Source: a virus (Duplodnaviria > Heunggongvirae > Uroviricota > Caudoviricetes). Taken from it: a stretch of DNA of 64,000 nucleotides. The DNA lies in IMG/VR virus record IMGVR_UViG_2880395615_000010; one strand, 5' to 3'. Positions 28,834 to 40,096 of the stretch are shown one piece after another; the first letter of the stretch is position 1, and every line of letters starts with the position of its first letter. Position numbers and translations under genes: made by a program. The notes under the pieces are model-generated. The model saw only the letters and a program-made list of their open reading frames with translations, was not told the origin of the DNA and ran no database searches.

Positions 28834-29201
28834 GGGATTTTCTCGTTGAAAGGTGTTGTTAAGAAAGTTGCTACGAAATGAGAGGCTCTTCGGGTTTTGT
28901 TCCGGCTGACTGGCTGGCGCTGATTTTTTCCGCCGCCGCGGCATCAATCTTTTTGCGTATATAGTTCCGGATAACCTTATACCCGCCACTTACCAGATAT
29001 AACGTGCACACCACCGTGCAGAAATACAATAAAATAAGCTGTACAAATCTCATTATCCCTCCCGGTTATTGATATGGTGTTGACATCGTTAATACCTGTT
29101 GGTTAAAAAAGTGTCCTGCATGTTTTGCTTTGGATATAACGACATTTGCCGCCGGTTCTGGCTCCTTGTTTTCCCTGCCCCGGCGGCCTTTTTTTTCCTG
29201 C

Positions 29202-29855
29202 TTACGGGTTATTCACTTCCACTGTTATACTTTCAATCAGCACCGGATATGTCGCACCGCTAGTGATATCGGTCACGCGCAATTTGTCTGCCGTAAACGT
29301 GCCGACCGGTGACTGTGACAGCATGAACGGCGTCCCGTCCTTACCATCAATGACCGGCGTCACCTCAATACTGTTGTTACCGGCAAAACGGAAGCCCAGC
29401 GTATGCCATTCGTTATCAAATGCGCCGAATGACCCCAGCTTCGTGTTCTGACCAGCATTTCCCTTGTAGTACATCACATTAAGGTCTGTGGCATCGCTCT
29501 GTACGTAAAACGACGCCAGCAGGTTATGACCGGCATTACCTTCCAGTGTGACGCCCTGAGGCAGTGAAGAAACCGGCCAGTACAGCGCCAGTGCGTACTG
29601 ATTAGCTGTCAGTATGCCATCAACTTTAAAACGACAACTGATAAGCCCGCCCTTCTCCAGCAGGTCTGCGCCATTACCGGCATCATGCTGCATAAACCAC
29701 GAGGAACTTCCTGTCTGTTTGGTCCACCTCAGCGCCTTACCTCCTGCAGCACCTGCATCATCAACTACCAATGCACGCCCTCCTTCAGCTCCCCATCCCT
29801 GCGGATTCAGTAAACCACCTGACTCTGTTGCACGGTAATAAAGCAGCGTTGTCAC
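29202..29855 (-). CDS. Conserved prophage protein, 217 aa (possible beta-sandwich/carbohydrate-binding type)
   Basis: ATGA overlap with the upstream DUF1737-like gene; paralogous fragment downstream. Confidence 0.55.
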   Translation of the reverse strand: MTTLLYYRATESGGLLNPQGWGAEGGRALVVDDAGAAGGKALRWTKQTGSSSWFMQHDAGNGADLLEKGGLISCRFKVDGILTANQYALALYWPVSSLPQGVTLEGNAGHNLLASFYVQSDATDLNVMYYKGNAGQNTKLGSFGAFDNEWHTLGFRFAGNNSIEVTPVIDGKDGTPFMLSQSPVGTFTADKLRVTDITSGATYPVLIESITVEVNNP

Positions 29856-30085
29856 TGATTTCCCGTCCGTTGGCCACCATCCCCCGTGCCGGGCACAACC
29901 ACTGGCGTGGTCACATCCCCCTCCGCGGCAATCGCCTGCATCAGGGTATAAGGGGTTATGGCCACCGGACTACCAAACGGCTGCCAGCCCTCTTTCAGTT
30001 TGTGTGTCAGCTTTTCCGCAAGCTCTGACGGCGACGCCGCCTTGACAACATCATAGTGTTTAAATGCCATGGTTCTTTCCACCAT
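29852..30085 (-). CDS. Small DUF1737-like protein, 77 aa
   Basis: Resembles the small proteins found near the stx/nanS-p locus of lambdoid phages (from memory); coupled to the next gene. Confidence 0.5.
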   Translation of the reverse strand: MVERTMAFKHYDVVKAASPSELAEKLTHKLKEGWQPFGSPVAITPYTLMQAIAAEGDVTTPVVVPGTGDGGQRTGNQ

Positions 30086-30321
30086 CTAAAAAATAATTCT
30101 TTAAGATACCTGACATGTAATACACAAAACCACACCTTAAATAAAAACCTCATCATAAAGCAGATATGCATGGATAAACTACAAGACGAGGTATAAACCA
30201 CCCTGCATTTAAATAAATAATAAACAACATCAGAAAAATAATTCTGCCCTATGGTTTACATTCAAAATTATCATTTATACTTTTCAGAACAACACCAGCA
30301 AGGCATAAACAAGGAAACTAA

Positions 30322-30657
30322 ATGAAGTGGATTGTGATTGATACAGTTATCCAGCCATCATGCGGAATATCTTTTTCAGTCATATGGAGTAAAATAAAAT
30401 TAATAATCTGGTATCAATCGGATGCTTTCTTACCTCCTGAAAGTATATTTACACTGACTCACACAGGTATCATGCTCAATAACAAAGTGCTACCTGTAAC
30501 CATTTACAACGTAGTACCATTCAATAAAACATTCTGGAATTTAATCAAAAACAGCCAGGAATGCCCTACAAATACAGATAACGTATTGAATGAATGCTTT
30601 AATAACCGTTGCACTCTGCAAATATGTCCTTATGGACTAAAACAGCAAAGTCCATAA
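30322..30657 (+). CDS. Hypothetical AT-rich cysteine-containing protein, 111 aa
   Basis: SD AAGGA 7 nt upstream of ATG; candidate -35 TTTACA / -10 TATACT upstream; opposite strand to all flanking phage genes. Confidence 0.45.
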
Positions 30658-30699
30658 GGAGTTTACTCACATCTGACAAAATCAATATAAACAGCCCCT

Positions 30700-30722
30700 C
30701 CGGAGAGGGGCTGGAGAGTGGC
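30700..30722 (-). terminator. Hairpin likely terminating the tRNA transcript
   Basis: cagcccctctccggaggggctg followed by a T-rich tract on the minus strand. Confidence 0.4.
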
Positions 30723-30948
30723 GCTATGTGCCATTGCATGGTGCCGGGTGCCTCCCGGTGAATTCAGTACCAGCACCTGAATCCGCGATTATCCCATATA
30801 CCTACTCGCTGATTGCCCCTCCGCACAGGGGGATTCACCATGCCAGTTTCTTTTAACAAACTCCCCGCAAACCAGACAACAGTCAACCGCCTGAATTGTG
30901 AGACATTTAAAAAAAAAGCCCGCAAAAGCGAGCCAGGGAAAATAAGTG

Positions 30949-31025
30949 TGGCGCGTTGTACTGGATTCGAACCAGTGACCGATTGCTTAGAAGGCAATTG
31001 CTCTGTCCGGCTGAGCTAACAACGC
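30949..31025 (-). tRNA. argO: tRNA-Arg (anticodon UCU)
   Basis: Perfect cloverleaf: acceptor gcgttgt/acaacgc, anticodon loop CTTCTAA, T-loop TTCGAAT, encoded CCA. Confidence 0.8.
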
Positions 31026-31038
31026 AGGATACAGATAA

Positions 31039-31116
31039 TGGACCGCCTTCGGGGACCCGAACTCCGCGCAACCAGCTTCGAAAGCTGGCGCTCTTTCCTG
31101 ATGAGCTAATGGCGGT
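31039..31116 (-). tRNA. argN: tRNA-Arg-like (anticodon read as UCG), imperfect stems
   Basis: Perfect anticodon stem ccagc/gctgg with loop TTTCGAA, but one mismatch each in the acceptor and T stems. Confidence 0.5.
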
Positions 31117-31122
31117 ATGTGA

Positions 31123-31198
31123 TGGTGGCCCTTGCTGGATTTGAACCAGCGACCTGGCGATTATGAGTCGCTCGCTCTCACCACTGAGCTAAAGGGCC
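31123..31198 (-). tRNA. ileZ: tRNA-Ile2 (anticodon CAU, ileX/ileZ-like)
   Basis: ggccctttagctcagtggtgagagc...ctCATaa...ggttcaaatccagcaagggccacca, very close to E. coli ileX from memory. Confidence 0.85.
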
Positions 31199-31247
31199 GG
31201 GAGCAGAATAATAATGGTGCGTAATTAATTCTGCAATCTCATCCGTT

Positions 31248-32297
31248 TCAAACGATTAAATCCTGAACTTCCCTGACTGTCTGCTCAAAACGTCCGGTCT
31301 CCAGCTCAACACCAATCGCACGACGCCCCAGTGCCATCGCCGCTTTTACCGTTGAACCCGACCCCATGAAAAAATCCGCAACCAGATCACCAGGACGGCT
31401 ACTTGCGCTGATTATCTGCTGCAGCATTTCTGCCGGTTTTTCGCACGGATGTTTCCCTGGATAGTACTGCACCGGTTTATACGTCCACACATCGGTGTAC
31501 GGCACCTGCACCGTCACACCGAAATACCTCCGCAAATTTTTATATTCACTCAGCAGTTCCATATACTGCCGGTTCAGCTCACTGTATGTGCTGACCAGTT
31601 GGTAATGGGACTTTTCCAGTTCTCCCCGCTGATGTTTCTCTTCTGCCACCCGGGCAAACAGCGACTGTAATTTCAGATAATCGCTTTCGTTCGGTAGCTG
31701 CCACTGACTGGCACTGAACCAGTGCGACACCATGTTTTTCTTTCCTGTGGCATCTGCAATCTGTTTTGCCGTTATCCCCAGGGCCGCGCGTGCATCACGA
31801 AAGTAAGAAATCAGCTGGGCCATCACATGCTGTTTCAGTTCCCTGCCCTTCGCCTCATACCCGGCATCTTTCGGGCGATACGGCCCCTGATAATGTTCCG
31901 CGAACAGAATGCGCTCTGTGGCGGGGAAATACGCCCGCAGGCTTTCCTTGTTGCATCCGTTCCAGCGTCCGGACGGCTTCGCCCAGATAATATGGTTCAG
32001 CACACTGAAGCGTTCACGCATCATGATTTCGATATCAGATGCCAGGCGATGACCACAGAACAGGTAAAGACTTCCGGCAGGTTTCAGCACCCGCCAGAAC
32101 TGCGCCAGACACTGGTCCAGCCACTTCAGGTAATCATCGTCGCCCTTCCACTGGTTATCCCAGCCCTCAGGCTTCACTTTAAAGTACGGCGGGTCCGTGA
32201 CTATCAGGTCAACAGAATTTTCGGGTAACGACCGGATAAATTCCAGGCAGTCGGCGTTGATTAACTCACAACTGGATATTTTTACAGTATTAAGCAT
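31248..32297 (-). CDS. DNA methyltransferase (DPPY motif), 349 aa
   Basis: DLIVTDPPYF motif plus C-terminal AdoMet-binding DFFMGSGST. Confidence 0.85.
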   Translation of the reverse strand: MLNTVKISSCELINADCLEFIRSLPENSVDLIVTDPPYFKVKPEGWDNQWKGDDDYLKWLDQCLAQFWRVLKPAGSLYLFCGHRLASDIEIMMRERFSVLNHIIWAKPSGRWNGCNKESLRAYFPATERILFAEHYQGPYRPKDAGYEAKGRELKQHVMAQLISYFRDARAALGITAKQIADATGKKNMVSHWFSASQWQLPNESDYLKLQSLFARVAEEKHQRGELEKSHYQLVSTYSELNRQYMELLSEYKNLRRYFGVTVQVPYTDVWTYKPVQYYPGKHPCEKPAEMLQQIISASSRPGDLVADFFMGSGSTVKAAMALGRRAIGVELETGRFEQTVREVQDLIV

Positions 32298-32447
32298 GGA
32301 TCATTAAGCCTGTCTCTGATAGGCTCATTCTGCTTTTGCGCAAAGCAGTGGGCCTGAGGTTTGCTTGTGAACCCAACGCATGAGCAGATGGCTGGTGGGT
32401 GCCCCTAACACCCACCAGCCGCCCATTTACCACAAATAAAAAAGCCT

Positions 32448-32645
32448 TCACTGCGGAAGGCGTCTGTAACAACCGAACTGATAGTCTGCCAGACCCGCCA
32501 TAACCAGCTGGGTCAGTATTAACTGGCAGCGTTCGCGTGAAAGGTAAGTATTCTGCGCTATCTCCCCGACTGTCGCCGGTTCGGTAACGCTTAATTCATT
32601 AAACACCACTCTGGCGGTTTCTGTCATATCCTGCTGTTTTAGCAT
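32448..32645 (-). CDS. Small hypothetical protein, about 65 aa
   Basis: ORF downstream of the Q-proximal terminator; start assumed at MLKQQDMTETARV. Confidence 0.3.
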   Translation of the reverse strand: MLKQQDMTETARVVFNELSVTEPATVGEIAQNTYLSRERCQLILTQLVMAGLADYQFGCYRRLPQ

Positions 32646-32764
32646 GTCTTTTTCCCTTTTCCGGTTAACGTGACACACCAATAACTCTTGTCGAAAAAGC
32701 CAGCAAGCTGAAAGAACGGTATTAATAACCACCAGCGAATTTATTGCGCTACTGTATATCGCGG

Positions 32765-32795
32765 ACACAAAAAAACCACCTTCCGGTGGCTTCCT
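32765..32795 (-). terminator. Intrinsic terminator downstream of Q (tR'-like)
   Basis: Minus strand gccaccggaaggtggc followed by ttttttt; expected position of the late-promoter short transcript. Confidence 0.45.
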
Positions 32796-32869
32796 TGTGC
32801 GAAAAAAACTTGCGTTTCGCCTCGCGATACAGCTTTGCGAAGCTTATACGGATTGAAGCAGTTTATTGA

Positions 32870-33433
32870 TCAGTTTGCAACATTTTTCTCTGTAACAAAA
32901 GCCATGCGCATGGGGGCATATAACATAAATTCAGATACCCCCAACCATTGATCAATTCGGCGTCTGCACGTAACCAACGACCAATCAGGATGATCTGCAT
33001 TTAACCTTTCGGCCATGTTCAGTTTGCTCATTCCCCGTCCTTCGTACCTTTGCCGGAGAACATTGATTAGCCCGGGATATTCCCCAAGCACCTCACTGAT
33101 AACGCGATCAATAATCAACGCCTCTGTGTCTGTACAATGTGACAACCAGCTCTTCTGCTTTCCTCTTGTCATATCCCGAAAAAATGCCTCAAGTTCCGGT
33201 TTTTCCAGCCCGGATTTCTTCATTCTGCGTAAAACCTCATTAACTGCTGTTTTCGTCAGCTTTTTCGAAACCAGTAACCGGTTAAACATATTTCCGGATT
33301 TACCCCCACCGATATACGACCACCGCCCCCACATCCGTAATTTCCCCTGGATCCAGACTGCTTCCAGCGTGTTCAGGCGTAAATGTTCGCCTCTTTTGCC
33401 TGTAATTTCCGGATATATCATATTTACGCTCAC
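32870..33433 (-). CDS. Q: Late-gene antiterminator Q-like protein, 187 aa
   Basis: Position between RusA and the tR'-like terminator; family assignment from context only. Confidence 0.55.
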   Translation of the reverse strand: MSVNMIYPEITGKRGEHLRLNTLEAVWIQGKLRMWGRWSYIGGGKSGNMFNRLLVSKKLTKTAVNEVLRRMKKSGLEKPELEAFFRDMTRGKQKSWLSHCTDTEALIIDRVISEVLGEYPGLINVLRQRYEGRGMSKLNMAERLNADHPDWSLVTCRRRIDQWLGVSEFMLYAPMRMAFVTEKNVAN

Positions 33434-33789
33434 TCACTCTCAATTTTGTAAATCTTCACACCCAGCCGTCCACCAGATACTGGCTGACCACGTACAATAT
33501 TGATTTCATCAAACTGCTCGTCATCAATGAGCACTCCCGCATGCGTCAGCGCATCCAGCGGTGCTTTCAGAATGTTGTCCAGGTCGCGACGACGCTTATC
33601 CGGTGGCTCTGCAATCACCTTTATCGCCAGCGTTCCGGACAGGCTTAATTTCAGCCGCTGCTGGCGAACAATAAGCGCCACAGCCCGGCGATAACGCTTT
33701 CCCTCCTCCGAGATAAAATATGTGCTGCCACGGCGTCGCCAGTAAGTGTTCACCGTCGGCGGGTAAGGTAAAACCAAATCTATGAGCAT
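33430..33789 (-). CDS. rusA: Holliday junction resolvase RusA, 119 aa
   Basis: MLIDLVLPYPPTVNTYW...RRDLDNILKAPLDALTHAGVLIDDEQF characteristic of RusA. Confidence 0.85.
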   Translation of the reverse strand: MLIDLVLPYPPTVNTYWRRRGSTYFISEEGKRYRRAVALIVRQQRLKLSLSGTLAIKVIAEPPDKRRRDLDNILKAPLDALTHAGVLIDDEQFDEINIVRGQPVSGGRLGVKIYKIESE

Positions 33790-33801
33790 CAGTCACCTCT
33801 T

Positions 33802-34779
33802 TTACCCAAGCACGCCAGTTGCAAAGGCGTGATCAAGAAAACGAAAAATTAAATCAACCTGAGAACCATGCTTTTCTTCGAACGCCAGCGGATCCGCATG
33901 AAGCTCGTTGTGATGCTCCCGACACAGCGGTAGCGTGAAAATATCGTGAGATTTTGTCCCCATTCCGCCCTGACCGTGACCAATCAGGTGATGGGGATCG
34001 TCTGCTGGCTTACCACAACATGTACACGGCTGTGTCTTTACCCAGCGCGTGTATTTCTCATTCACCCAGCGGCGACGTTTAGGCCGCTTCATGAATGATT
34101 CCGGTGACTCCGGATCAACGGCAATGCTGACCACCGTCTTTTCCTGTGGTGGGTTCTGTTGCTGGTGGGCGTGAGGCAACGGCGCAAAATTTTTTGTGCG
34201 CTGCTTCAGTATGCTGATGGCTGTCTGTTCTCCCGGTATGATGTCACTCTCGCGGTATACTGAGTGGATTTTTTCCGCGCGTAACCCCAGAGAACGATGT
34301 AATACTGCCTCCGGTAGTGCGTCCGCTACCTGATTGCAGAGCGCCCACCAGGATAATTCAGCCAGCGATAATTCCCGTTCCTGTGCACCACTTATTGCGT
34401 GACGTATGACGTCAATCATCCAGGCTGTCAGATTTTGTTGAGCAAGCTGCCCGAGTGATTCGGATGTCTGGTCGCGCAGCTGGTTGTCGCAGTGCCAGCA
34501 CAACACCATTGCGCCGGTACCGTAACGATGTATGACGGTTTCACTGTGGTGATAGTCTCCATGAGGCCACTGGCAGGATTTAACATGACGCAGGAGCCAG
34601 TCAGACAGTGCGCCAGCGCCGCCAGCAGCACGAATCACACGCTCATCGCTGAAAAATGGCAGTAATGATTTATCCTCCGCCAGCGGCTGGCGAACGGCAG
34701 GGACGACTCCGGACGGCAGACCGCGCATGCTTTTCGGTTCAGGCTCCACCAGCACTCGAGGGTTATGAAATACTTGCAT
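33802..34779 (-). CDS. nin-region DUF968-like protein with C-terminal HNH-like Cys/His motif
   Basis: C-terminal CTCCGKPADDPHHLIGHG...CREHHNELH; start probably the internal Met near 34779. Confidence 0.6.
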   Translation of the reverse strand: MQVFHNPRVLVEPEPKSMRGLPSGVVPAVRQPLAEDKSLLPFFSDERVIRAAGGAGALSDWLLRHVKSCQWPHGDYHHSETVIHRYGTGAMVLCWHCDNQLRDQTSESLGQLAQQNLTAWMIDVIRHAISGAQERELSLAELSWWALCNQVADALPEAVLHRSLGLRAEKIHSVYRESDIIPGEQTAISILKQRTKNFAPLPHAHQQQNPPQEKTVVSIAVDPESPESFMKRPKRRRWVNEKYTRWVKTQPCTCCGKPADDPHHLIGHGQGGMGTKSHDIFTLPLCREHHNELHADPLAFEEKHGSQVDLIFRFLDHAFATGVLG

Positions 34780-34852
34780 GGATTCACAGCCCGGCCTAAG
34801 GACCACAAGCCCGAGTTCCGGTACCAGAACAGGTCGAAGTAATATCCGCACG

Positions 34853-35125
34853 TTACCTCCAGATCCGTTGCTGGTATGTGCGGGATGGGCGCGGTGGGCG
34901 TTCGGAATAAGGGAGCCTGACATAGATTATCCAGTGACGATAATCGAGGCTGAGGGCTTTCTTAATCTCGTATCCGCGTCTGCGGTAGTTATGAATTAGC
35001 CATTCGGCCTGTTCTTCAGTACATGGTGGGTGTTGGTACCAGTCGGTTTTAAATGCGTGTGAACGCCGCCCATGCCGGATGGCAAGGTCGGTATCAGAAT
35101 TGTGAAATTTGGTTTTGTGCGCCAT
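34853..35125 (-). CDS. Hypothetical small basic protein, 90 aa
   Basis: ORF only. Confidence 0.3.
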   Translation of the reverse strand: MAHKTKFHNSDTDLAIRHGRRSHAFKTDWYQHPPCTEEQAEWLIHNYRRRGYEIKKALSLDYRHWIIYVRLPYSERPPRPSRTYQQRIWR

Positions 35126-35194
35126 CTGTTTTCTCTGCTGGCGCAGCAGGTGTCAGGTGTTCAGGCTGACGTGCGAATTGTAAACCAGAATGCC

Positions 35195-35222
35195 AGGAAA
35201 AAACAAAACCCGCCGAAGCGGG
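35195..35222 (-). terminator. Intrinsic terminator downstream of hok
   Basis: Minus strand aacccgcttcggcgggtt followed by ttgtttttt. Confidence 0.45.
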
Positions 35223-35292
35223 TTAAGTGCGGGTGCGTTGAGGATGCCTGACTCATCAGAGGTGGCGAGGGATTTCTCCCTCGCCTGGTCTC

Positions 35293-35448
35293 TTACTCCT
35301 CAGGTTCGTAAGCTGTGAAGACAGCGACCTCCGTCTGGCCGGTTCGGAGTCGTACCTCGCAGAGGTCTTTCCTCGTTACCAGTGCCGTCACAATGACGGT
35401 TAAACAGATGACGATCAGGGCGATAAGCATCGCCTTTTGCTGCTTCAT
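35293..35448 (-). CDS. hok: Hok/Gef-family type I toxin, 51 aa
   Basis: MKQQKAMLIALIVICLTVIVTALVTRKDLCEVRLRTGQTEVAVFTAYE matches the Hok pattern; SD AAGGAG upstream. Confidence 0.75.
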   Translation of the reverse strand: MKQQKAMLIALIVICLTVIVTALVTRKDLCEVRLRTGQTEVAVFTAYEPEE

Positions 35449-35739
35449 AGCCTGCTTCTCCTTGCCTTTCGGCACGTAAGAGGCTAACCTACGTGTGTAG
35501 AGCATAGATATGGCCTCAGATTAATGTTAAGCGTCTTGCCGGACGCGTAATGTTAACTGGGGCTTTTCTCTATCTGCCTTTTGGTGTTCATGCCTGAGAC
35601 AGATAGCCTCAAGCACCCGCAGCAATTCTACTTAACTCTCCTTTTCCCGCAAACCGTTTTTATCCCCAGCGGCAAATCGAATACACCACCAGCGTCACCG
35701 CCATCGCAATTCCTACCGTTGTGAATGCCTCAGGCCAGG

Positions 35740-36393
35740 TCATTGATTCACCTCCTGCGACAGTTCAGGCAACGCTTCCAGTGATGCTTTCACAAACCAC
35801 GCTGCCTGAACTATAACGCCATGGATCCAACGCAAATCAGCATCGCGATCTTTCTTTTTCATCTTTTCGCTACTTAAAGCCTGGCTTATGTGGCTGCGCA
35901 CCAGGTCTTCATGTAAATCCTTCGCATCCTCAATGGTGAAACCACCAGGCAGAAGAGCCGGAGTTACCGGAGAGCTGGTTGACGCTTCCGGGATTTTCCG
36001 AAAATTATTGGTTGACGAATCTTTATTTTCCCGAAAGTTTCCGGACTGAAGCATGGCTTCGCGGCAATCGTTCCAGCCTGTAGCGTATGCAGCCGCTTTG
36101 CTGCTGCCTTCAACTGGCGCATCCTGCCAATACATTTCTTCCGGCACTATCGGCGCTGGAGGGGCGGCAAATAGATATCCGCCAAAGTCAGGAAGCTCTC
36201 CAATGGCCTGTACGAACTTTTGTTTGCCTACGTCAACTCCTAATGGGTAATGAGCTATAATCTTTGCCACCGGCTCTGCTTCCAGCGATGCCAGCGCAAT
36301 CCGTGCCAGTTCCATTTGTTCACCACGGGTAAGCCCGTTTTCAAGCGGATTTTTAATGAACAATTCAATACGTTCTTTGGTAATAGTGGTCAT
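35740..36393 (-). CDS. Hypothetical phage protein, 217 aa
   Basis: ORF with SD; no recognisable motif. Confidence 0.5.
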   Translation of the reverse strand: MTTITKERIELFIKNPLENGLTRGEQMELARIALASLEAEPVAKIIAHYPLGVDVGKQKFVQAIGELPDFGGYLFAAPPAPIVPEEMYWQDAPVEGSSKAAAYATGWNDCREAMLQSGNFRENKDSSTNNFRKIPEASTSSPVTPALLPGGFTIEDAKDLHEDLVRSHISQALSSEKMKKKDRDADLRWIHGVIVQAAWFVKASLEALPELSQEVNQ

Positions 36394-36403
36394 GTGTTAC
36401 TCC

Positions 36404-36667
36404 TTAACCCGCAGTGCTTTCAACTGATGAGGGGAACAAAATCTTTTCATCAAACCCTGCATTCATATCATGAACAGCAACACACCAATCCATCGACGAA
36501 CGATTATCAAGAGCCTCCATGATTTCATCCATGCGGCGTAGGTCATACAGGTAAATGCTTTTATCGCCAATGGTGTAAAAGCCAATTTTTTTCGGTGATG
36601 GACAGCGATCAAGAACTTCCTGTAATTCGTTCAACCATGCCCGTTCTTTTTTTGTCAAAGTTGCCAT
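36404..36667 (-). CDS. Hypothetical phage protein, about 87 aa
   Basis: Start assumed at MATLTKKERAWLNELQ overlapping the upstream stop (ATGA). Confidence 0.4.
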   Translation of the reverse strand: MATLTKKERAWLNELQEVLDRCPSPKKIGFYTIGDKSIYLYDLRRMDEIMEALDNRSSMDWCVAVHDMNAGFDEKILFPSSVESTAG

Positions 36668-36668
36668 A

Positions 36669-36887
36669 TCAGTTTTCCTTATACGGATTAATTTTATTGT
36701 GCAGTGTGTTGAACGACGCCCATACAACGTCGGTATACAATTCAGTAACTGGCTCAATTATTTTCCCGATTGCCCAGACAAAAATTAGAGGGGATATCGG
36801 TATCATCAATACGATAAACAGAATGAGAAACCAAAATTCTGTCGCCCTACTTTTTTGCGGATATTCTTTTCTGAATAATGTAGTCAT
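36669..36887 (-). CDS. Small membrane protein, 72 aa
   Basis: One long hydrophobic segment FWFLILFIVLMIPISPLIFVWAIG. Confidence 0.4.
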   Translation of the reverse strand: MTTLFRKEYPQKSRATEFWFLILFIVLMIPISPLIFVWAIGKIIEPVTELYTDVVWASFNTLHNKINPYKEN

Positions 36888-37236
36888 TTCTTACCGCCCT
36901 TTCGGGCGGCCTCCCGACATTAATCGTTGTGGTAACTCATGGCTTCATTTGCAGCATCAACCGGATCAACCTCCCACCAGCAATAATTTGGTGCGTTTCC
37001 TTCAGGTGTCCACGGTTCTAATTCATTTTTTGCCACATTCTCGTCGCCAGTAATTTTAAAAATCTGCTCAGAGAATTTTTCACCCACTCGTTATATTTTT
37101 CAGTGTTAATAATTTTCTGTGTATTTGACATAGATATACCTCCAGTTAAGGATTAAATTTTATTTACAGTGCTGAACTTAATTATTCAGATTTGGATTAT
37201 GCTTTCTCTTCACGAAGTTCCGATTGTTAATTTGGC

Positions 37237-37659
37237 TCACAACAGCACCTTCTGAAAATTACCCTGATAGAAAGCCAGTACACGCTGCATAGCTTCGCTC
37301 TTCCGGCACTCGCTACAGATTATGTTTTGACGCCTGTCGTAGCGGCGTATTTCTCCGTCTGGTAATGACCAGATAAGGTCAGGATCAACCACAGATGGTT
37401 TCTTCAGATTTGCCCTTGAGAGTTTTTTGCGGGCGTTTTGCCAGTCCTTACGCGCCTGTTCAGACGGGAACAACCCGTAACCAGAGTTGTATACATCGCC
37501 GCTGGCAACCAGCTCTCTTGCGAGAACGCTCATCAGATATCTTGTCGCACCTGTCTTGACTTCCAGTTGCCGTAACGTCTCACGCCCACTCTGGCGTACG
37601 AGTTCAACAACCTGCCCTTTAATTTTTTCTCGCTCTTCTTGTGTAAAAACTTTTGCCAC
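37237..37659 (-). CDS. Hypothetical protein, 140 aa
   Basis: ORF immediately downstream of the replication initiator; CxxC at C-terminus. Confidence 0.45.
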   Translation of the reverse strand: MAKVFTQEEREKIKGQVVELVRQSGRETLRQLEVKTGATRYLMSVLARELVASGDVYNSGYGLFPSEQARKDWQNARKKLSRANLKKPSVVDPDLIWSLPDGEIRRYDRRQNIICSECRKSEAMQRVLAFYQGNFQKVLL

Positions 37660-37699
37660 AAGTCCTCCTGAAAATTACCTCATGACCAGAAATCAACAC

Positions 37700-38776
37700 T
37701 TACCCCCTGAAGCCCAGTGGAATTTCGGTATCTGGTTCAGAAATGTGATTCACGCAACGCTGGTTGTTCGTACCGCTTACCGGGAGCAACCAGGGGTTCT
37801 CAAAATTCCGGTCCGGTCCTAAAAACGTCGTCGCTCGCTGAACAAATTCCGTTCCCGTTTTCCCGGTAGCCGCCAAGTATCTTGCGTAACGCCTCACGCC
37901 ATCCAGCATGGCCTCTGGTGGCACCCCCTCGCGTAATCTGGCCTTCCAGGCACTGAAAGCGGATTTCTTCGGGTTTGCTCCGGCACGCAACGGGTACTCC
38001 CGCCAGACCTGTTCGAACACATCCGGATAATCCACTCGTCCCACAGACTGCCCGGTGTTTTCCGGGACTACCCGATCGGCTTCCCGCAGAATGGCGGAAT
38101 CGGCTTCAGGCTGCTGCAGTTGGTGTGATTGCTCCGGCCTTGCGGTCATCACCTGCTGCACAGCGCCCGAATCGGCTTTCAGCGCATACGCTGAATCGGC
38201 TTCCGGTGTCGTGCCTGCTGGCTGACCAAGATTGACGGTCTGAACATCCCCTGCCTGGTTCGTGGCGTTTTTTACGCCATGGACCATAGTGTTTTGATCT
38301 TCTTGATCTGTATCTTTATCTGTATCTTTATCTGTCGTTACTCGTCGTGACATGTGCGTGACATTTCGTGACGCGCCGTGACAATCGCCATTTTGTTCCC
38401 GCTTTCTTTCCCTCTCTCGCTGCGCCCTCTTGCGCTCTGCAGGAGATTTTGCGGTTTGCGAAATATTGCCGTTGTCCTCTTTAAGCACCTGGCGTTTTTC
38501 CCATCCAGTGATTAAATCACCATCAAGTACCCGCCCCTGCATCGTCTGCAAAATTGAATCAATTACCTCTTCTGTCACGTCGAGCGCACTTGCCAAATCT
38601 TCTGTCGTGACATCAATGTGACCTCGCGTGACATTTCGTGACGCGCTCACCAGGAGGTGGATATACACTGCCATCACTGTTGCAATTGGCTGCCCTGACA
38701 CCCTGGCAATTGTTCGCCACTTAGGGTCATTTGGCATGTCATGCCATAATCTGAGCCAAGCGTTAGCCATACTCAC
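37700..38776 (-). CDS. Replication initiator/organiser protein (lambda O-like role), 358 aa
   Basis: Position after the cro-like/YdaT-like genes; internal iteron clusters; conserved C-terminal region (VFEQVWREYPLRAGANPKKSAF...). Confidence 0.65.
   Translation of the reverse strand: MSMANAWLRLWHDMPNDPKWRTIARVSGQPIATVMAVYIHLLVSASRNVTRGHIDVTTEDLASALDVTEEVIDSILQTMQGRVLDGDLITGWEKRQVLKEDNGNISQTAKSPAERKRAQRERERKREQNGDCHGASRNVTHMSRRVTTDKDTDKDTDQEDQNTMVHGVKNATNQAGDVQTVNLGQPAGTTPEADSAYALKADSGAVQQVMTARPEQSHQLQQPEADSAILREADRVVPENTGQSVGRVDYPDVFEQVWREYPLRAGANPKKSAFSAWKARLREGVPPEAMLDGVRRYARYLAATGKTGTEFVQRATTFLGPDRNFENPWLLPVSGTNNQRCVNHISEPDTEIPLGFRG
38346..38382. repeat. Iteron cluster 1: four CGTGAC repeats at 10-11 bp spacing
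   Basis: cgtgac at 38346, 38357, 38367, 38377. Confidence 0.55.
38609..38645. repeat. Iteron cluster 2: four (C)GTGAC repeats at 10-11 bp spacing
   Basis: gtgac at 38609, 38620, 38630, 38640; 21-mer gcgtgacatttcgtgacgcgc identical to cluster 1. Confidence 0.55.
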
Positions 38777-38841
38777 CTCTTCTGATACCGAATCTTTTTA
38801 CTCACGAGTTGCCGGAAGCGATTCGATATGGCTATTGTCAG

Positions 38842-39267
38842 TCAATGTACTGCCACAGCATTTCCTGCCGGGCCACCACGGTTCATCTGATTGAAACCGG
38901 CGATTGCCACTGCGACAAAATCATCAGCGTCTCTCACCAATCGCTCCCGCGTCTCCACCAGCTCCCGAAAATAAGCTGAACTGTGGCTGCGCATTCTGGC
39001 CACCAGCAAAGGTGGCATTGCCTTTTCGATCGCTGGTAACAACGCCTGAATTTTTTCAACTGCATCAGGGGTGTCTTTCTCTACCCAGCGGAAAATTTTC
39101 TGGGTATTGCGAGCCAGGGCTTCCGGATGGCTGTCGTCATACAGTTCAGGAAACGTCATACCCAACTCAAAATAAGCCTGGGTTATTCCAGCTGCTGGAA
39201 CTTTTTCGCCATCAGGACGCGCCCAGGCATTCATCGCCATGCGGATGTGTTCATGCTTGATTTTCAT
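38842..39267 (-). CDS. ydaT: YdaT-like protein, 141 aa
   Basis: N-terminus MKIKHEHI matches my recollection of K-12 YdaT; overlaps the upstream HTH gene. Confidence 0.6.
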   Translation of the reverse strand: MKIKHEHIRMAMNAWARPDGEKVPAAGITQAYFELGMTFPELYDDSHPEALARNTQKIFRWVEKDTPDAVEKIQALLPAIEKAMPPLLVARMRSHSSAYFRELVETRERLVRDADDFVAVAIAGFNQMNRGGPAGNAVAVH

Positions 39268-39532
39268 GAATCAAGCTCCTAGTAAGTGGTTGTGTTAACG
39301 TTTTGGTATCTTCCAGCTCGGGCCAAATATTCATCCAATCAAAAGGCCTTAGTTGCTGACGTGTAACTTCACCATTACTGGCTCGCTCAATAAGGACACA
39401 TAACGATGCCCCTAAGATTTGACCTTTACTCAATGCCTTTCTTAGATAACCGATGCTAGTACCACACTCACATGCAAACATACGCTGTTCATCTGACGAA
39501 AGAGAATTGAGAAATATTCTTAATTCTTCCAT
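39251..39532 (-). CDS. Cro/YdaS-like HTH regulator, 93 aa
   Basis: HTH segment CGTSIGYLRKALS; divergent from the repressor-like gene. Confidence 0.6.
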   Translation of the reverse strand: MEELRIFLNSLSSDEQRMFACECGTSIGYLRKALSKGQILGASLCVLIERASNGEVTRQQLRPFDWMNIWPELEDTKTLTQPLTRSLIHENQA

Positions 39533-39632
39533 AGCTACTCCTTAGTAAACACAGCAAAGAATACCCACAGGTAAACAAAAGTCAATACCCCTAGGTTGTT
39601 TACCTTGCGGTAATCGCATCTATTATTTACCT
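39533..39632. promoter_or_regulatory. Divergent promoter/operator region of the immunity switch
   Basis: Inverted repeat ggtaaacaa...ttgtttacc plus repeated TTACC motifs between divergent HTH genes. Confidence 0.45.
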
Positions 39633-40052
39633 ATGGACAAATATGAATTTAGACGACAACAACTCATCAAAATTCGTGATGAGAAATGCGATGGTAAAGC
39701 GGTTAACGTGGCCAGAAAGATCGGTCGCGAGCCTTCTTATGTATCAAGAATGTTGTACCCAGAGGGGAAAAAAGGAAAAAAACGGATCGCTGATGATATG
39801 GTGGAGATTATAGAAGAGTCCTTTGGGTTACCCCGGGGATGGATGGATGGTATCGTTTCATCATCAACGAACACAGCCTCCAATTATGAAACAAGGGTTC
39901 TAACGCCACGACAACGTATTTTTTTAGATCTCTTAGACGAACTGCCAGAAAGTGAAGCGGATAACTTATTAAAAACTCTTGAAGAGAAAAAACAGTATTA
40001 CAATATGATCTACGAAGAAATCCGTAAAAAGAAAGCACAAAACGCATCATAA
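39633..40052 (+). CDS. Prophage repressor-like HTH protein without a peptidase domain, 139 aa
   Basis: HTH KAVNVARKIGREPSYVSRML; no Ser/Lys dyad region. Confidence 0.55.
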   Translation: MDKYEFRRQQLIKIRDEKCDGKAVNVARKIGREPSYVSRMLYPEGKKGKKRIADDMVEIIEESFGLPRGWMDGIVSSSTNTASNYETRVLTPRQRIFLDLLDELPESEADNLLKTLEEKKQYYNMIYEEIRKKKAQNAS

Positions 40053-40096
40053 CTCACCAAACAACCAGTCACCAGTTAAGACACATCAAAAAAAAT

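What the first reader, a model, noticed from the sequence alone, without database searches (positions are those of the whole stretch)
35195..35700. hok-like type I toxin in the nin region
A 51-aa ORF matches the Hok/Gef pattern closely (hydrophobic helix, conserved Cys, ...FTAYE), has a strong SD and a downstream intrinsic terminator. The 250 bp upstream should contain the overlapping mok-like frame and an antisense sok-like RNA, but I could not place these confidently by eye.
Basis: partly seen in the sequence, partly recalled or inferred. Interest (0 to 1): 0.4.

Follow-up and report, generated by a model that had tools for sequence, protein, structure and literature searches.

The report
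Known hok/mok/sok toxin-antitoxin cassette
This is a complete copy of the well-known hok/sok RNA-controlled toxin-antitoxin cassette (HokD/HokW type) in the early region of a lambda-like E. coli prophage; it is real, but it is already annotated and has been studied experimentally in close relatives.

Summary
On the minus strand, 35293-35448 encodes a 51-aa Hok/Gef toxin (Pfam 80.6 bits, cut-off 22). It is 50/51 identical to K-12 HokD and 46/51 identical to HokW of phage 933W.

All the regulatory parts that define a hok/sok locus are present:
- an in-frame 70-codon mok ORF (35293-35505);
- a 170-nt leader matching Rfam RF01794 (117 bits, cut-off 59);
- a 5'-3' end pairing (tac 35607-35618 with fbi 35231-35243) that appears in the minimum-energy fold and shows compensatory changes across 33 homologues;
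- an anti-SD box over the mok SD;
- a 71-nt antisense Sok gene on the plus strand (35497-35567), whose promoter hexamers and the spacer between them are identical to those of sokW. The sokW -10 was mutated in the published promoter-less construct.

The same 551 bp occurs at 100% identity in several E. coli genomes, where PGAP labels the gene hokD. It is 92.5% identical to hokW-sokW, which has been shown to be a working type I toxin-antitoxin system.

The cassette lies between the replication genes and the RusA/Q-like genes, so "nin region" is correct. It is the positional counterpart of K-12 hokD, which lost its leader to relBE.

Verdict: already known, low interest.

The parts
35647..35652 (-). 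Putative -35 hexamer (TTGCGG) of the hok promoter, 16-nt spacer
   Evidence: Read from the sequence. It is a weak match to consensus and was not flagged by the consensus scan. Inferred.
35625..35630 (-). -10 hexamer (TAGAAT) of the hok promoter, 6 nt upstream of the mRNA 5' end
   Evidence: 31 of the 33 aligned hok loci carry a TANNNT hexamer 6 nt upstream of the conserved GGG 5' end, although their upstream flanks are otherwise unrelated. Citrobacter L047 and Kluyvera L027 deviate at one position.
35197..35618 (-). Predicted full-length hok mRNA (about 416-420 nt), from the conserved GGGUGCUUGAGG 5' end to the U run of the terminator
   Evidence: The Rfam model starts at 35618. MFE -169.8 kcal/mol, z = -8.0 against shuffles. 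The structure is supported on 33 homologues: 87.4% of cells paired against 39-46% for slid controls.
35607..35618 (-). tac (translational activator) element at the extreme 5' end of the mRNA
   Evidence: Pairs with fbi in the MFE fold. Duplex energy -21.5 kcal/mol. Shows covariation with fbi.
35559..35565 (-). ucb / anti-SD box (AAGCCCC). Pairs with the mok SD in the full-length fold and with tac in the 62-110 nt nascent folds and in the Rfam consensus.
   Evidence: The roles of the elements are taken from PMC9841398.
35514..35517 (-). mok Shine-Dalgarno sequence (GAGG)
   Evidence: A GAGG lies roughly 7-12 nt (most often 8-10) upstream of the mok ATG in the homologues. It is paired with ucb in the full-length MFE.
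35293..35505 (-). mok ORF, 70 codons, in frame with hok (an N-terminally extended Hok)
   Evidence: Matches the annotated mokW of 933W. An ORF at this position that runs across the hok start is kept in 28 of 33 homologues, in frame 0 or +1; two more stop at the hok ATG.
35480..35484 (-). dcb (GCCUC). Pairs with the mok SD region in the tac/ucb ('open') conformer.
   Evidence: Constrained fold. Invariant in all 33 homologues. Model taken from PMC9841398.
35458..35463 (-). hok Shine-Dalgarno sequence (AAGGAG), 9 nt before the ATG
   Evidence: Sequence. Conserved across the alignment.
35293..35448 (-). hok toxin gene, 51 aa (HokD/HokW type)
   Evidence: Pfam HOK_GEF 80.6 bits. PHROG 251. 100% identical DNA is annotated hokD in RefSeq genomes.
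35264..35285 (-). GC-rich 3'-UTR hairpin. It would be the last stem-loop of the processed (truncated) mRNA.
   Evidence: Helix 16: 97% of cells paired, 3 pairs with compensatory changes. Its protective role is inferred from R1 (PMC9841398).
35231..35243 (-). fbi (fold-back inhibition) element, complementary to tac with a 1-nt bulge
   Evidence: It lies 45-56 nt after the hok stop codon in 33 of the 37 loci examined; of the other four, one is the IS-disrupted hokC type, one has a frameshifted hok, and two Photorhabdus duplexes run two pairs longer and start at nt 46.
35197..35224 (-). Intrinsic terminator (stem-loop 35207-35224 plus U run 35197-35206)
   Evidence: Shared with K-12 hokD but not with 933W hokW.
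35462..35467 (+). Sok promoter -35 hexamer (TTGCCT)
   Evidence: Sequence. The complement GGCAA is invariant in 33 homologues. Identical in 933W.
35485..35490 (+). Sok promoter -10 hexamer (TAACCT), 17-nt spacer
   Evidence: Identical to sokW. Comparing primer YO-421 with the wild-type sequence shows that this hexamer was changed in the 'pro-less' construct, which lost antitoxin activity.
35497..35567 (+). Sok antisense RNA, 71 nt: a 15-nt single-stranded 5' tail complementary to the mok start region, a long hairpin and a UUUU end
   Evidence: Coordinates transferred from the sokW misc_RNA of AF125520. Fold energy -28.6 kcal/mol for the 71-mer; a 79-nt stretch that includes it gave z = -5.4.

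Best explanation
The region is a complete hok/mok/sok type I toxin-antitoxin cassette of the HokD/HokW subgroup, carried in the nin-equivalent region of a lambdoid prophage.

Proposed mechanism:
1. A weak constitutive promoter (-10 TAGAAT) makes a stable hok mRNA of about 418 nt.
2. In the full-length RNA the 5' end (tac) pairs with fbi near the 3' end, and the ucb box covers the mok Shine-Dalgarno sequence. In this state the RNA is neither translated nor bound by Sok.
3. Slow 3' trimming removes the terminator and fbi. The 5' end then refolds onto ucb, which frees the mok SD.
4. Ribosomes translating mok run across the hok SD and so switch on hok. Hok is a 51-aa inner-membrane peptide that depolarises and kills the cell.
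5. The unstable 71-nt Sok RNA is made from a convergent promoter inside the mok/hok overlap. Its 5' tail pairs with the mok start region, and the duplex is cut by RNase III. Hok is therefore made only when Sok stops being replenished.

Shown here: all of the sequence elements, the predicted folds and their covariation.

Inferred from R1 hok/sok and hokW-sokW: processing, translational coupling, RNase III/Hfq dependence and toxicity.

The most likely physiological role is the one shown for hokW-sokW, namely earlier host killing and lysis with more phage released on prophage induction. Prophage retention or phage exclusion are alternatives.
For: Toxin: Pfam HOK_GEF 80.6 bits and PHROG 251. It is 50/51 identical to K-12 HokD and 46/51 identical to HokW.

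Leader: RF01794 at 117.1 bits against a cut-off of 59, covering the full model 1-157.

mok: a 70-codon ORF. An ORF at this position that runs across the hok start is kept in 28 of 33 homologues; two more stop at the hok ATG.

tac/fbi:
- The pairing is present in the MFE of the 419-nt RNA, z = -8.0.
- Position 4 is U-A in 21 sequences and C-G in 11. Position 12 is G-C in 18 and A-U in 5.

Whole-mRNA structure on 33 sequences from Escherichia, Shigella, phage 933W, Kluyvera, Photorhabdus, Pantoea, Citrobacter, Pseudocitrobacter and unclassified Enterobacteriaceae:
- 87.4% of cells are paired, against 39-46% in the slid controls.
- 32 pairs show double changes, against 9-19 in the controls.

Alternative conformers exist: a metastable 5' hairpin at 40 nt, a tac/ucb stem at 62-110 nt, and a tac/ucb plus SDmok/dcb conformer only 2.3 kcal/mol above the MFE of the truncated RNA.

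Sok:
- Its coordinates and promoter are identical to annotated sokW.
- Its -10 hexamer is the one mutated in the published promoter-less construct.
- It has a stable hairpin with a free 5' tail.
- G-U pairs are common in leader helix 2, which is needed only on the mRNA strand. They are almost absent from helix 5, which must fold on both strands.

Experiments on the 92.5%-identical hokW-sokW show that HokW is toxic. sokW neutralises it in a manner dependent on its promoter, RNase III and Hfq. HokW also goes to the inner membrane (PMC8621323).

The mechanistic model is from PMC9841398.
Against: - There are no expression or toxicity data for this exact allele (Hok I34L relative to HokD; 6 of 19 differences in the Sok 5' tail region relative to SokW).
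- The simple sigma-70 consensus scan flagged neither the hok nor the sok promoter. Both have weak hexamers.
- The unconstrained MFE of the truncated mRNA gives the metastable-type 5' hairpin rather than the tac/ucb stem.
- The tac/ucb pairs are invariant, so they carry no covariation evidence.
- Native chromosomal hokA, hokB and hokC loci did not mediate post-segregational killing in earlier work, as summarised in bioRxiv 10.1101/2025.08.07.668861. An intact sequence therefore does not guarantee a phenotype.
- I found no YUNR U-turn motif in the predicted target loop.
Confidence: 0.9

Rival explanations
1. The locus is sequence-intact but physiologically silent, like several chromosomal hok/sok copies. 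It would be a hitch-hiking remnant with no measurable killing, maintenance or lysis role in this prophage.
For: [quoted passage not shown] E. coli genomes carry a median of 2 and up to 11 such copies, which suggests redundancy. Both promoters are weak by consensus.
Against: No IS insertion, frameshift or loss of tac, fbi, mok or sok is present, unlike the K-12 copies. The promoter and hairpin of Sok are identical to functional sokW. The structure is under visible purifying and compensatory selection across genera.
Confidence: 0.12
2. It is a relBEF-type hokD: a Hok ORF expressed only as the distal gene of a relBE operon, with no antisense control, as in K-12 Qin.
For: RefSeq names the identical gene hokD. 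The protein is 50/51 identical to K-12 HokD, and the 3' UTR and terminator are shared with K-12 hokD. The flanking DUF968 (ydfU-like) gene is syntenic with Qin.
Against: Homology to K-12 begins only 14 nt upstream of the hok ATG. The window instead carries the full 170-nt leader with mok, sok and tac. The upstream genes are not RelB/RelE: there is no Pfam hit, and the PHROG families are of unknown function.
Confidence: 0.01
3. It is a working hok/sok module whose main role is not assisting lysis. Instead it would act in abortive-infection defence against superinfecting phages (as reported for R1 hok/sok against T4) or in addiction that penalises prophage loss.
For: The TA literature lists these roles for hok/sok. 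hok genes are about four-fold enriched in prophages. The cassette occurs in unrelated genomic contexts: the nin region here and in phages Evi and pPE4, and the right end of 933W. That fits a selfish or defensive module.
Against: No direct evidence exists for this cassette. No enrichment of hok near defence systems was found. The only experiment on a prophage copy points to a lysis and release role.
Confidence: 0.3

Closest known systems
hokW-mokW-sokW of Stx2 phage 933W / Sakai prophage Sp5 (AF125520; PMC8621323)
   Same: 92.5% DNA identity over the cassette, and a 538-bp colinear block at 35221-35758. Both have a 51-aa toxin (46/51 identical), an in-frame 70-codon mok and a 71-nt Sok with an identical promoter and hairpin.
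   Different: The Sok 5' recognition tail and its target differ at 6 of 19 positions. The C-terminus is FTAYEPEE rather than FVDYESEK. 933W lacks the terminator that follows fbi here. The cassette sits at the right end of 933W, not in the nin region.
hokD (relF) of the K-12 Qin cryptic prophage
   Same: The toxin is 50/51 identical. The 3' UTR, fbi and terminator are shared (96.6% identity over 265 nt). The position next to the DUF968/ydfU gene of a DicF-carrying lambdoid prophage is the same.
   Different: K-12 hokD has lost the whole leader (promoter, tac, ucb, mok start, sok), which is replaced by relBE. K-12 also carries rem between ydfU and hokD. The window copy keeps the complete regulatory region.
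hok/sok of plasmid R1 (the archetype)
   Same: It has the same set of elements (tac, fbi, ucb, dcb, mok, Sok with a 5' tail plus hairpin) and the same predicted conformational logic.
   Different: Hok is only about 44% identical to the closely related HokW. By my recollection of the R1 sequence, which I did not check here, R1 mok is out of frame with hok. The leader here has a stem extension of 16 nt relative to the Rfam consensus, and of 18-22 nt relative to the short-stem homologues. It is prophage-borne rather than plasmid-borne.
hokC (gef)/mokC/sokC of E. coli
   Same: mok is in frame, and the leader architecture and tac/fbi sequences are the same.
   Different: The toxin is about 80% identical and the Sok stem is shorter. 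The K-12 copy is disrupted downstream by IS186.

Membership tests
[quoted passage not shown] | Small (about 50 aa) Hok/Gef-family membrane toxin ORF | tested here: met
   Pfam PF01848 at 80.6 bits against a cut-off of 22, covering 42 of 42 profile positions. PHROG 251 at E=4e-33. NCBIfam Hok subfamily at only 49 bits against a cut-off of 73.
[quoted passage not shown] | Upstream overlapping mok ORF with its own SD, reading across the hok SD and start (translational coupling) | tested here: met
   The 70-codon ORF 35293-35505 has a GAGG 8 nt upstream of its ATG. An ORF at this position that runs across the hok start is kept in 28 of 33 homologues, in frame 0 or +1. The coupling itself was not tested.
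[quoted passage not shown] | cis-encoded antisense Sok RNA gene (promoter, 5' tail complementary to the mok translation start, hairpin, U-tract) | tested here: met
   35497-35567 on the plus strand. The promoter hexamers and hairpin are identical to annotated and experimentally validated sokW. Transcription in this strain is not testable here.
[quoted passage not shown] | tac/fbi pairing between the 5' and 3' ends of the mRNA | tested here: met
   12 bp plus a bulge, -21.5 kcal/mol, present in the MFE. Compensatory changes occur at two positions across genera.
[quoted passage not shown] | ucb anti-SD that alternates between the mok SD (closed form) and tac (open form), with dcb pairing to the SD region in the open form | tested here: met
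   The closed form is in the MFE. The open form appears in the 62-110 nt folds and lies 2.3 kcal/mol above the MFE in the truncated RNA. Helix 5 has 6 pairs with compensatory changes. The tac/ucb pairs are invariant, so they are uninformative.
[quoted passage not shown] | Match to the curated covariance model of the leader (Rfam RF01794) | tested here: met
   117.1 bits against a gathering score of 59, covering the full model length.
[quoted passage not shown] | Toxicity of Hok, neutralisation by Sok, and 3' processing of the mRNA | not testable with these tools
   Shown for HokW/sokW and for HokD overexpression, but not for this allele.
relBEF-linked hokD (K-12 Qin arrangement) | Hok ORF directly downstream of relB-relE with no leader, mok or sok of its own | tested here: not met
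   The leader is present, and homology with K-12 breaks 14 nt upstream of the ATG. No RelB/RelE domains are found upstream.

The most novel reading that the evidence does not exclude
The cassette's placement may wire it to prophage induction. It is co-oriented with the early-right operon, lies between the replication genes and the Q-like gene, and has the Sok promoter firing head-on into that operon. Its own terminator is the only strong minus-strand intrinsic terminator in this interval. Read-through from the early promoter could occlude Psok and deliver hok sequence on a long transcript, which would time host killing. The hok terminator could also act as a nin-type terminator gating Q expression. 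The same placement and orientation recur in phages Evi and pPE4 and in Qin.
Probability: 0.15. Interest if true: 0.35.

Novelty: already known. Interest (0 to 1): 0.1.

Why it matters
It matters little as a discovery. The cassette is annotated in thousands of E. coli genomes and many phages, and its mechanism is textbook.

Its modest value is as a clean reference for what K-12 hokD looked like before relBE replaced its leader. It is also one more example of hok/sok recurring at the nin position of lambdoid prophages, which could be used to ask how prophage induction triggers Hok.

Tried and rejected
1. The consensus promoter scan did not flag the hok or sok promoters. Its only hit (minus strand 35530..35501, inside the leader) matches chance expectation and was dismissed.
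2. The unconstrained fold of the 3'-truncated mRNA gave the metastable-type 5' hairpin, not the tac/ucb stem. A constrained fold was needed.
3. The NCBIfam Hok models score below their cut-offs, so they give no equivalog-level naming.
4. The weak Rfam hits on the 3' UTR (isrK 27.8 bits against 50; rsmX, CsrC, a CRISPR repeat and a snoRNA) are all below their thresholds. They reflect only the hairpin plus terminator, and I rejected them.
5. The relBEF-type hokD reading was rejected by alignment.
6. I looked by eye for a YUNR U-turn motif in the predicted Sok-target loop and found none, so I make no claim about it.
7. The first 25-kb query was one base too long and was repeated.

Full report
**Observation**

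The minus strand of 35293-35448 encodes a 51-aa peptide, MKQQKAMLIALIVICLTVIVTALVTRKDLCEVRLRTGQTEVAVFTAYEPEE. It matches Pfam HOK_GEF over the whole profile (E=6.3e-23, 80.6 bits, cut-off 22). It also matches PHROG 251 'MokW-like host killing' (E=4e-33). An AAGGAG Shine-Dalgarno sequence lies 9 nt upstream. A GC-rich stem-loop with a U run lies downstream at 35224..35207.

**The missing elements**

A gathering-threshold Rfam scan of the whole window finds RF01794 ('sok') at 35443-35618 with 117.1 bits (cut-off 59, E=5e-26), covering the full model length.

The alignment shows that the hit is on the hok-coding strand and that the model ends at the hok SD and start codon. The Rfam model therefore describes the hok mRNA leader, and the Sok RNA is its complement.

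The ORF list contains an in-frame 70-codon ORF (35293-35505) starting 57 nt upstream of hok. This is mok.

**Identity with known loci**

- The 551-bp region is 100% identical in E. coli D1, O157:H16 98-3133 and O55:H7 DEC5B, where PGAP calls the gene hokD.
- 2919 of 5426 complete E. coli genomes hold at least 80% of it.
- Among phages it is 92.5% identical to the hokW/mokW/sokW locus of Stx2 phage 933W and its relatives.
- The 933W GenBank record annotates mokW, hokW and a 71-nt SokW antisense RNA.
- Transferring those coordinates through the alignment puts Sok at 35497-35567 on the plus strand.
- The Sok -35 (TTGCCT, 35462-35467) and -10 (TAACCT, 35485-35490) hexamers and the 17-nt spacer are identical in the two loci.

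Takada et al. 2021 (PMC8621323) studied hokW-sokW directly:
- HokW is toxic from pBAD.
- sokW expressed from its own promoter neutralises it.
- Mutating the sokW promoter restores toxicity, and sokW supplied in trans rescues it.
- RNase III and Hfq contribute to the neutralisation.
- After mitomycin C, sokW disappears, HokW appears in the inner membrane, and phage release is halved without the locus.

Comparing their mutagenic primer YO-421 with the wild-type sequence shows that the changed hexamer is exactly this TAACCT.

**RNA architecture**

Folding the predicted 419-nt transcript (35618 down to 35200) gives -169.8 kcal/mol, z = -8.0 against shuffles. In this fold nt 1-12 pair with 35231-35243 (12 bp and one bulge). 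That is the tac/fbi end pairing that defines hok mRNAs. In the same fold the AAGCCCC box (ucb, 35559-35565) covers the mok GAGG SD. This is the 'closed' form described for R1 (PMC9841398).

The alternative folds of the model also exist here:
- The first 40 nt form a hairpin in which tac pairs immediately downstream (the metastable structure).
- At 62-110 nt the tac/ucb stem of the Rfam consensus forms.

The unconstrained MFE of the truncated RNA is instead the metastable-type hairpin.

Sok folds into a 15-nt free 5' tail (complementary to the mok start codon region), a long hairpin and a UUUU end.

**Comparative test**

A scan of one genome per species with the Hok peptide returned 47 loci. 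Of the 37 loci examined, counting the window and 933W, 33 have a complement of the 5' end lying 45-56 nt after the hok stop codon. In the two Photorhabdus loci L033 and L034 the predicted duplex is two pairs longer and so starts at nt 46, although the element sits at the usual position. Two loci deviate outright: L017 (hokC type; in K-12 the hokC copy is disrupted downstream by IS186) and L046 (frameshifted hok). The element co-varies with tac:
- Position 4 is U-A in Escherichia/Kluyvera types and C-G in Photorhabdus and Pantoea.
- Position 12 is G-C or A-U.

I aligned 33 distinct mRNAs and mapped the window's MFE structure onto the alignment:
- 87.4% of cells form pairs, against 39-46% when partners are slid.
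- 32 pairs have changes on both sides, against 9-19 in the slid controls.
- 0 of 500 shuffles reached the observed covariation.

This structure was derived from one of the aligned sequences, so the paired-cell excess is partly expected. The compensatory counts are the stronger evidence.

G-U pairs are frequent in leader helix 2, which lies outside Sok. They are nearly absent from helix 5, which must fold on both strands as the mRNA hairpin and the Sok hairpin.

A TANNNT hexamer sits 6 nt upstream of the conserved GGG in 31 of the 33 loci, although the upstream flanks are otherwise unrelated. Citrobacter L047 (GAAAAT) and Kluyvera L027 (TACTAT) deviate at one position. This supports 35618 as the transcription start.

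An ORF at the mok position that runs across the hok start is kept in 28 of 33 sequences. It is in frame 0 or +1, which fits a coupling device rather than a conserved protein. Two more (L018, L019) stop just at the hok ATG.

**Genomic context**

Window 28836-42448 is 98-99.8% identical to annotated prophages in E. coli D1 and DEC5B. The element is a full-length lambdoid prophage at tRNA-Ser/mtfA. It carries head, tail and lysis genes, a DUF1133 (Q-like) gene, RusA, DUF968, the hok cassette, replication genes, an immunity region, DicF/dicB, an exonuclease and an integrase.

The cassette lies between the replication genes and RusA/Q, and it is co-oriented with them. 'nin region' is therefore correct. 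The same placement is seen in phages Evi and pPE4.

The locus is the positional counterpart of K-12 hokD: the ydfU/DUF968 gene is 85% identical, and the hok ORF plus 3' UTR is 96.6% identical. In K-12, however, homology stops 14 nt upstream of the ATG, where relBE replaces the leader. In 933W the same 538-bp block (35221-35758) lies at the right end of the phage genome, so the cassette moves as a unit.

**Mechanism and role**

The steps shown here are the presence, arrangement, predicted folding and covariation of all elements. The following steps are inferred from R1 and hokW work:
- 3' exonucleolytic activation of the mRNA;
- mok-hok translational coupling;
- Sok binding followed by RNase III cleavage;
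- membrane depolarisation by Hok.

The physiological role is uncertain. The only experiment on a prophage copy points to earlier killing and better phage release on induction. Addiction and phage exclusion remain possible, and several chromosomal copies were inactive in older assays.

One speculative point is that early-operon read-through would collide with Psok. The hok terminator is also the only strong minus-strand intrinsic terminator between the replication genes and the Q-like gene.

**Verdict**

The finding is real and was correctly interpreted. It is an already known, annotated and experimentally characterised kind of locus, so interest is low.

Noticed in passing
window 35443-35618 (minus strand): The Rfam RF01794 model named 'sok antitoxin' matches the hok-sense strand and ends at the hok SD/ATG. 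It actually models the hok mRNA leader. Strand calls taken from this family will place 'Sok' on the wrong strand.
   Followed up: yes
window 35307-35310 (minus strand; Tyr47 codon of hok, UACG): The Tyr codon in ...FTAYE... sits in a UACG motif that is invariant in all 33 aligned hok genes. A preprint states that hokC, hokD and hokE mRNAs undergo TadA A-to-I editing that recodes the equivalent Tyr to Cys. This Hok may therefore gain its second Cys by RNA editing.
   Followed up: partly
window 35660-35743 (minus strand): A 27-aa hydrophobic ORF (MTWPEAFTTVGIAMAVTLVVYSICRWG) lies just upstream of the hok promoter and overlaps the stop codon of the 217-aa gene. It is kept as an ORF in 933W and in other E. 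coli copies of the cassette (81-96% aa identity). It has no Pfam, NCBIfam or PHROG hit (Pfam was not run on this ORF). It could be an unannotated small membrane protein or just a chance ORF.
   Followed up: partly
window 35072-35251 (plus strand): RefSeq annotates a 59-aa 'hypothetical protein' (WP_001112736.1) here, antisense to the hok 3' UTR, fbi and terminator. It has no family support and is probably a spurious call.
   Followed up: partly
window 35740-36393 (minus strand): RefSeq relatives label part of this 217-aa ORF upstream of the cassette 'dTDP-6-deoxy-L-hexose 3-O-methyltransferase'. It has no Pfam hit and matches only PHROGs of unknown function. This looks like a misannotation.
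   Followed up: partly
window 35462 (left homology breakpoint with K-12) and 35142-35199: K-12 Qin hokD homology starts 14 nt upstream of the hok ATG, where relBE has replaced the leader. K-12 also has rem inserted between ydfU and hokD, which this prophage lacks.
   Followed up: yes
window 30683-30872, 30952-31198, 41196-41247: Other RNA genes of the prophage: STnc100 sRNA (132 bits), three tRNAs (annotated Arg, Arg and Ile in relatives) downstream of the Q-like gene, and DicF (76.7 bits) next to dicB.
   Followed up: no
window 35497-35515 against L001 2777-2795: The Sok 5' recognition tail differs from SokW at 6 of 19 positions, while the hairpin and promoter are identical. This could insulate co-resident hok/sok copies from cross-talk; E. 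coli genomes hold up to 11 copies.
   Followed up: partly
L020, L024 (genome contigs); L054 (phage PP818812): E. coli-type hokD sequences at 93-98% identity sit on very short contigs (275 and 431 nt) assigned to Acinetobacter idrijaensis and Xanthomonas pisi. They also occur in an 'Actinobacillus phage' with an E. coli-like nin region. Contamination or host misassignment is likely.
   Followed up: no
window 35207-35224 (minus strand), within 32800-39800: The hok terminator is the strongest minus-strand intrinsic-terminator-like site between the replication genes and the Q-like gene. It may double as a nin-type terminator of the early operon.
   Followed up: no
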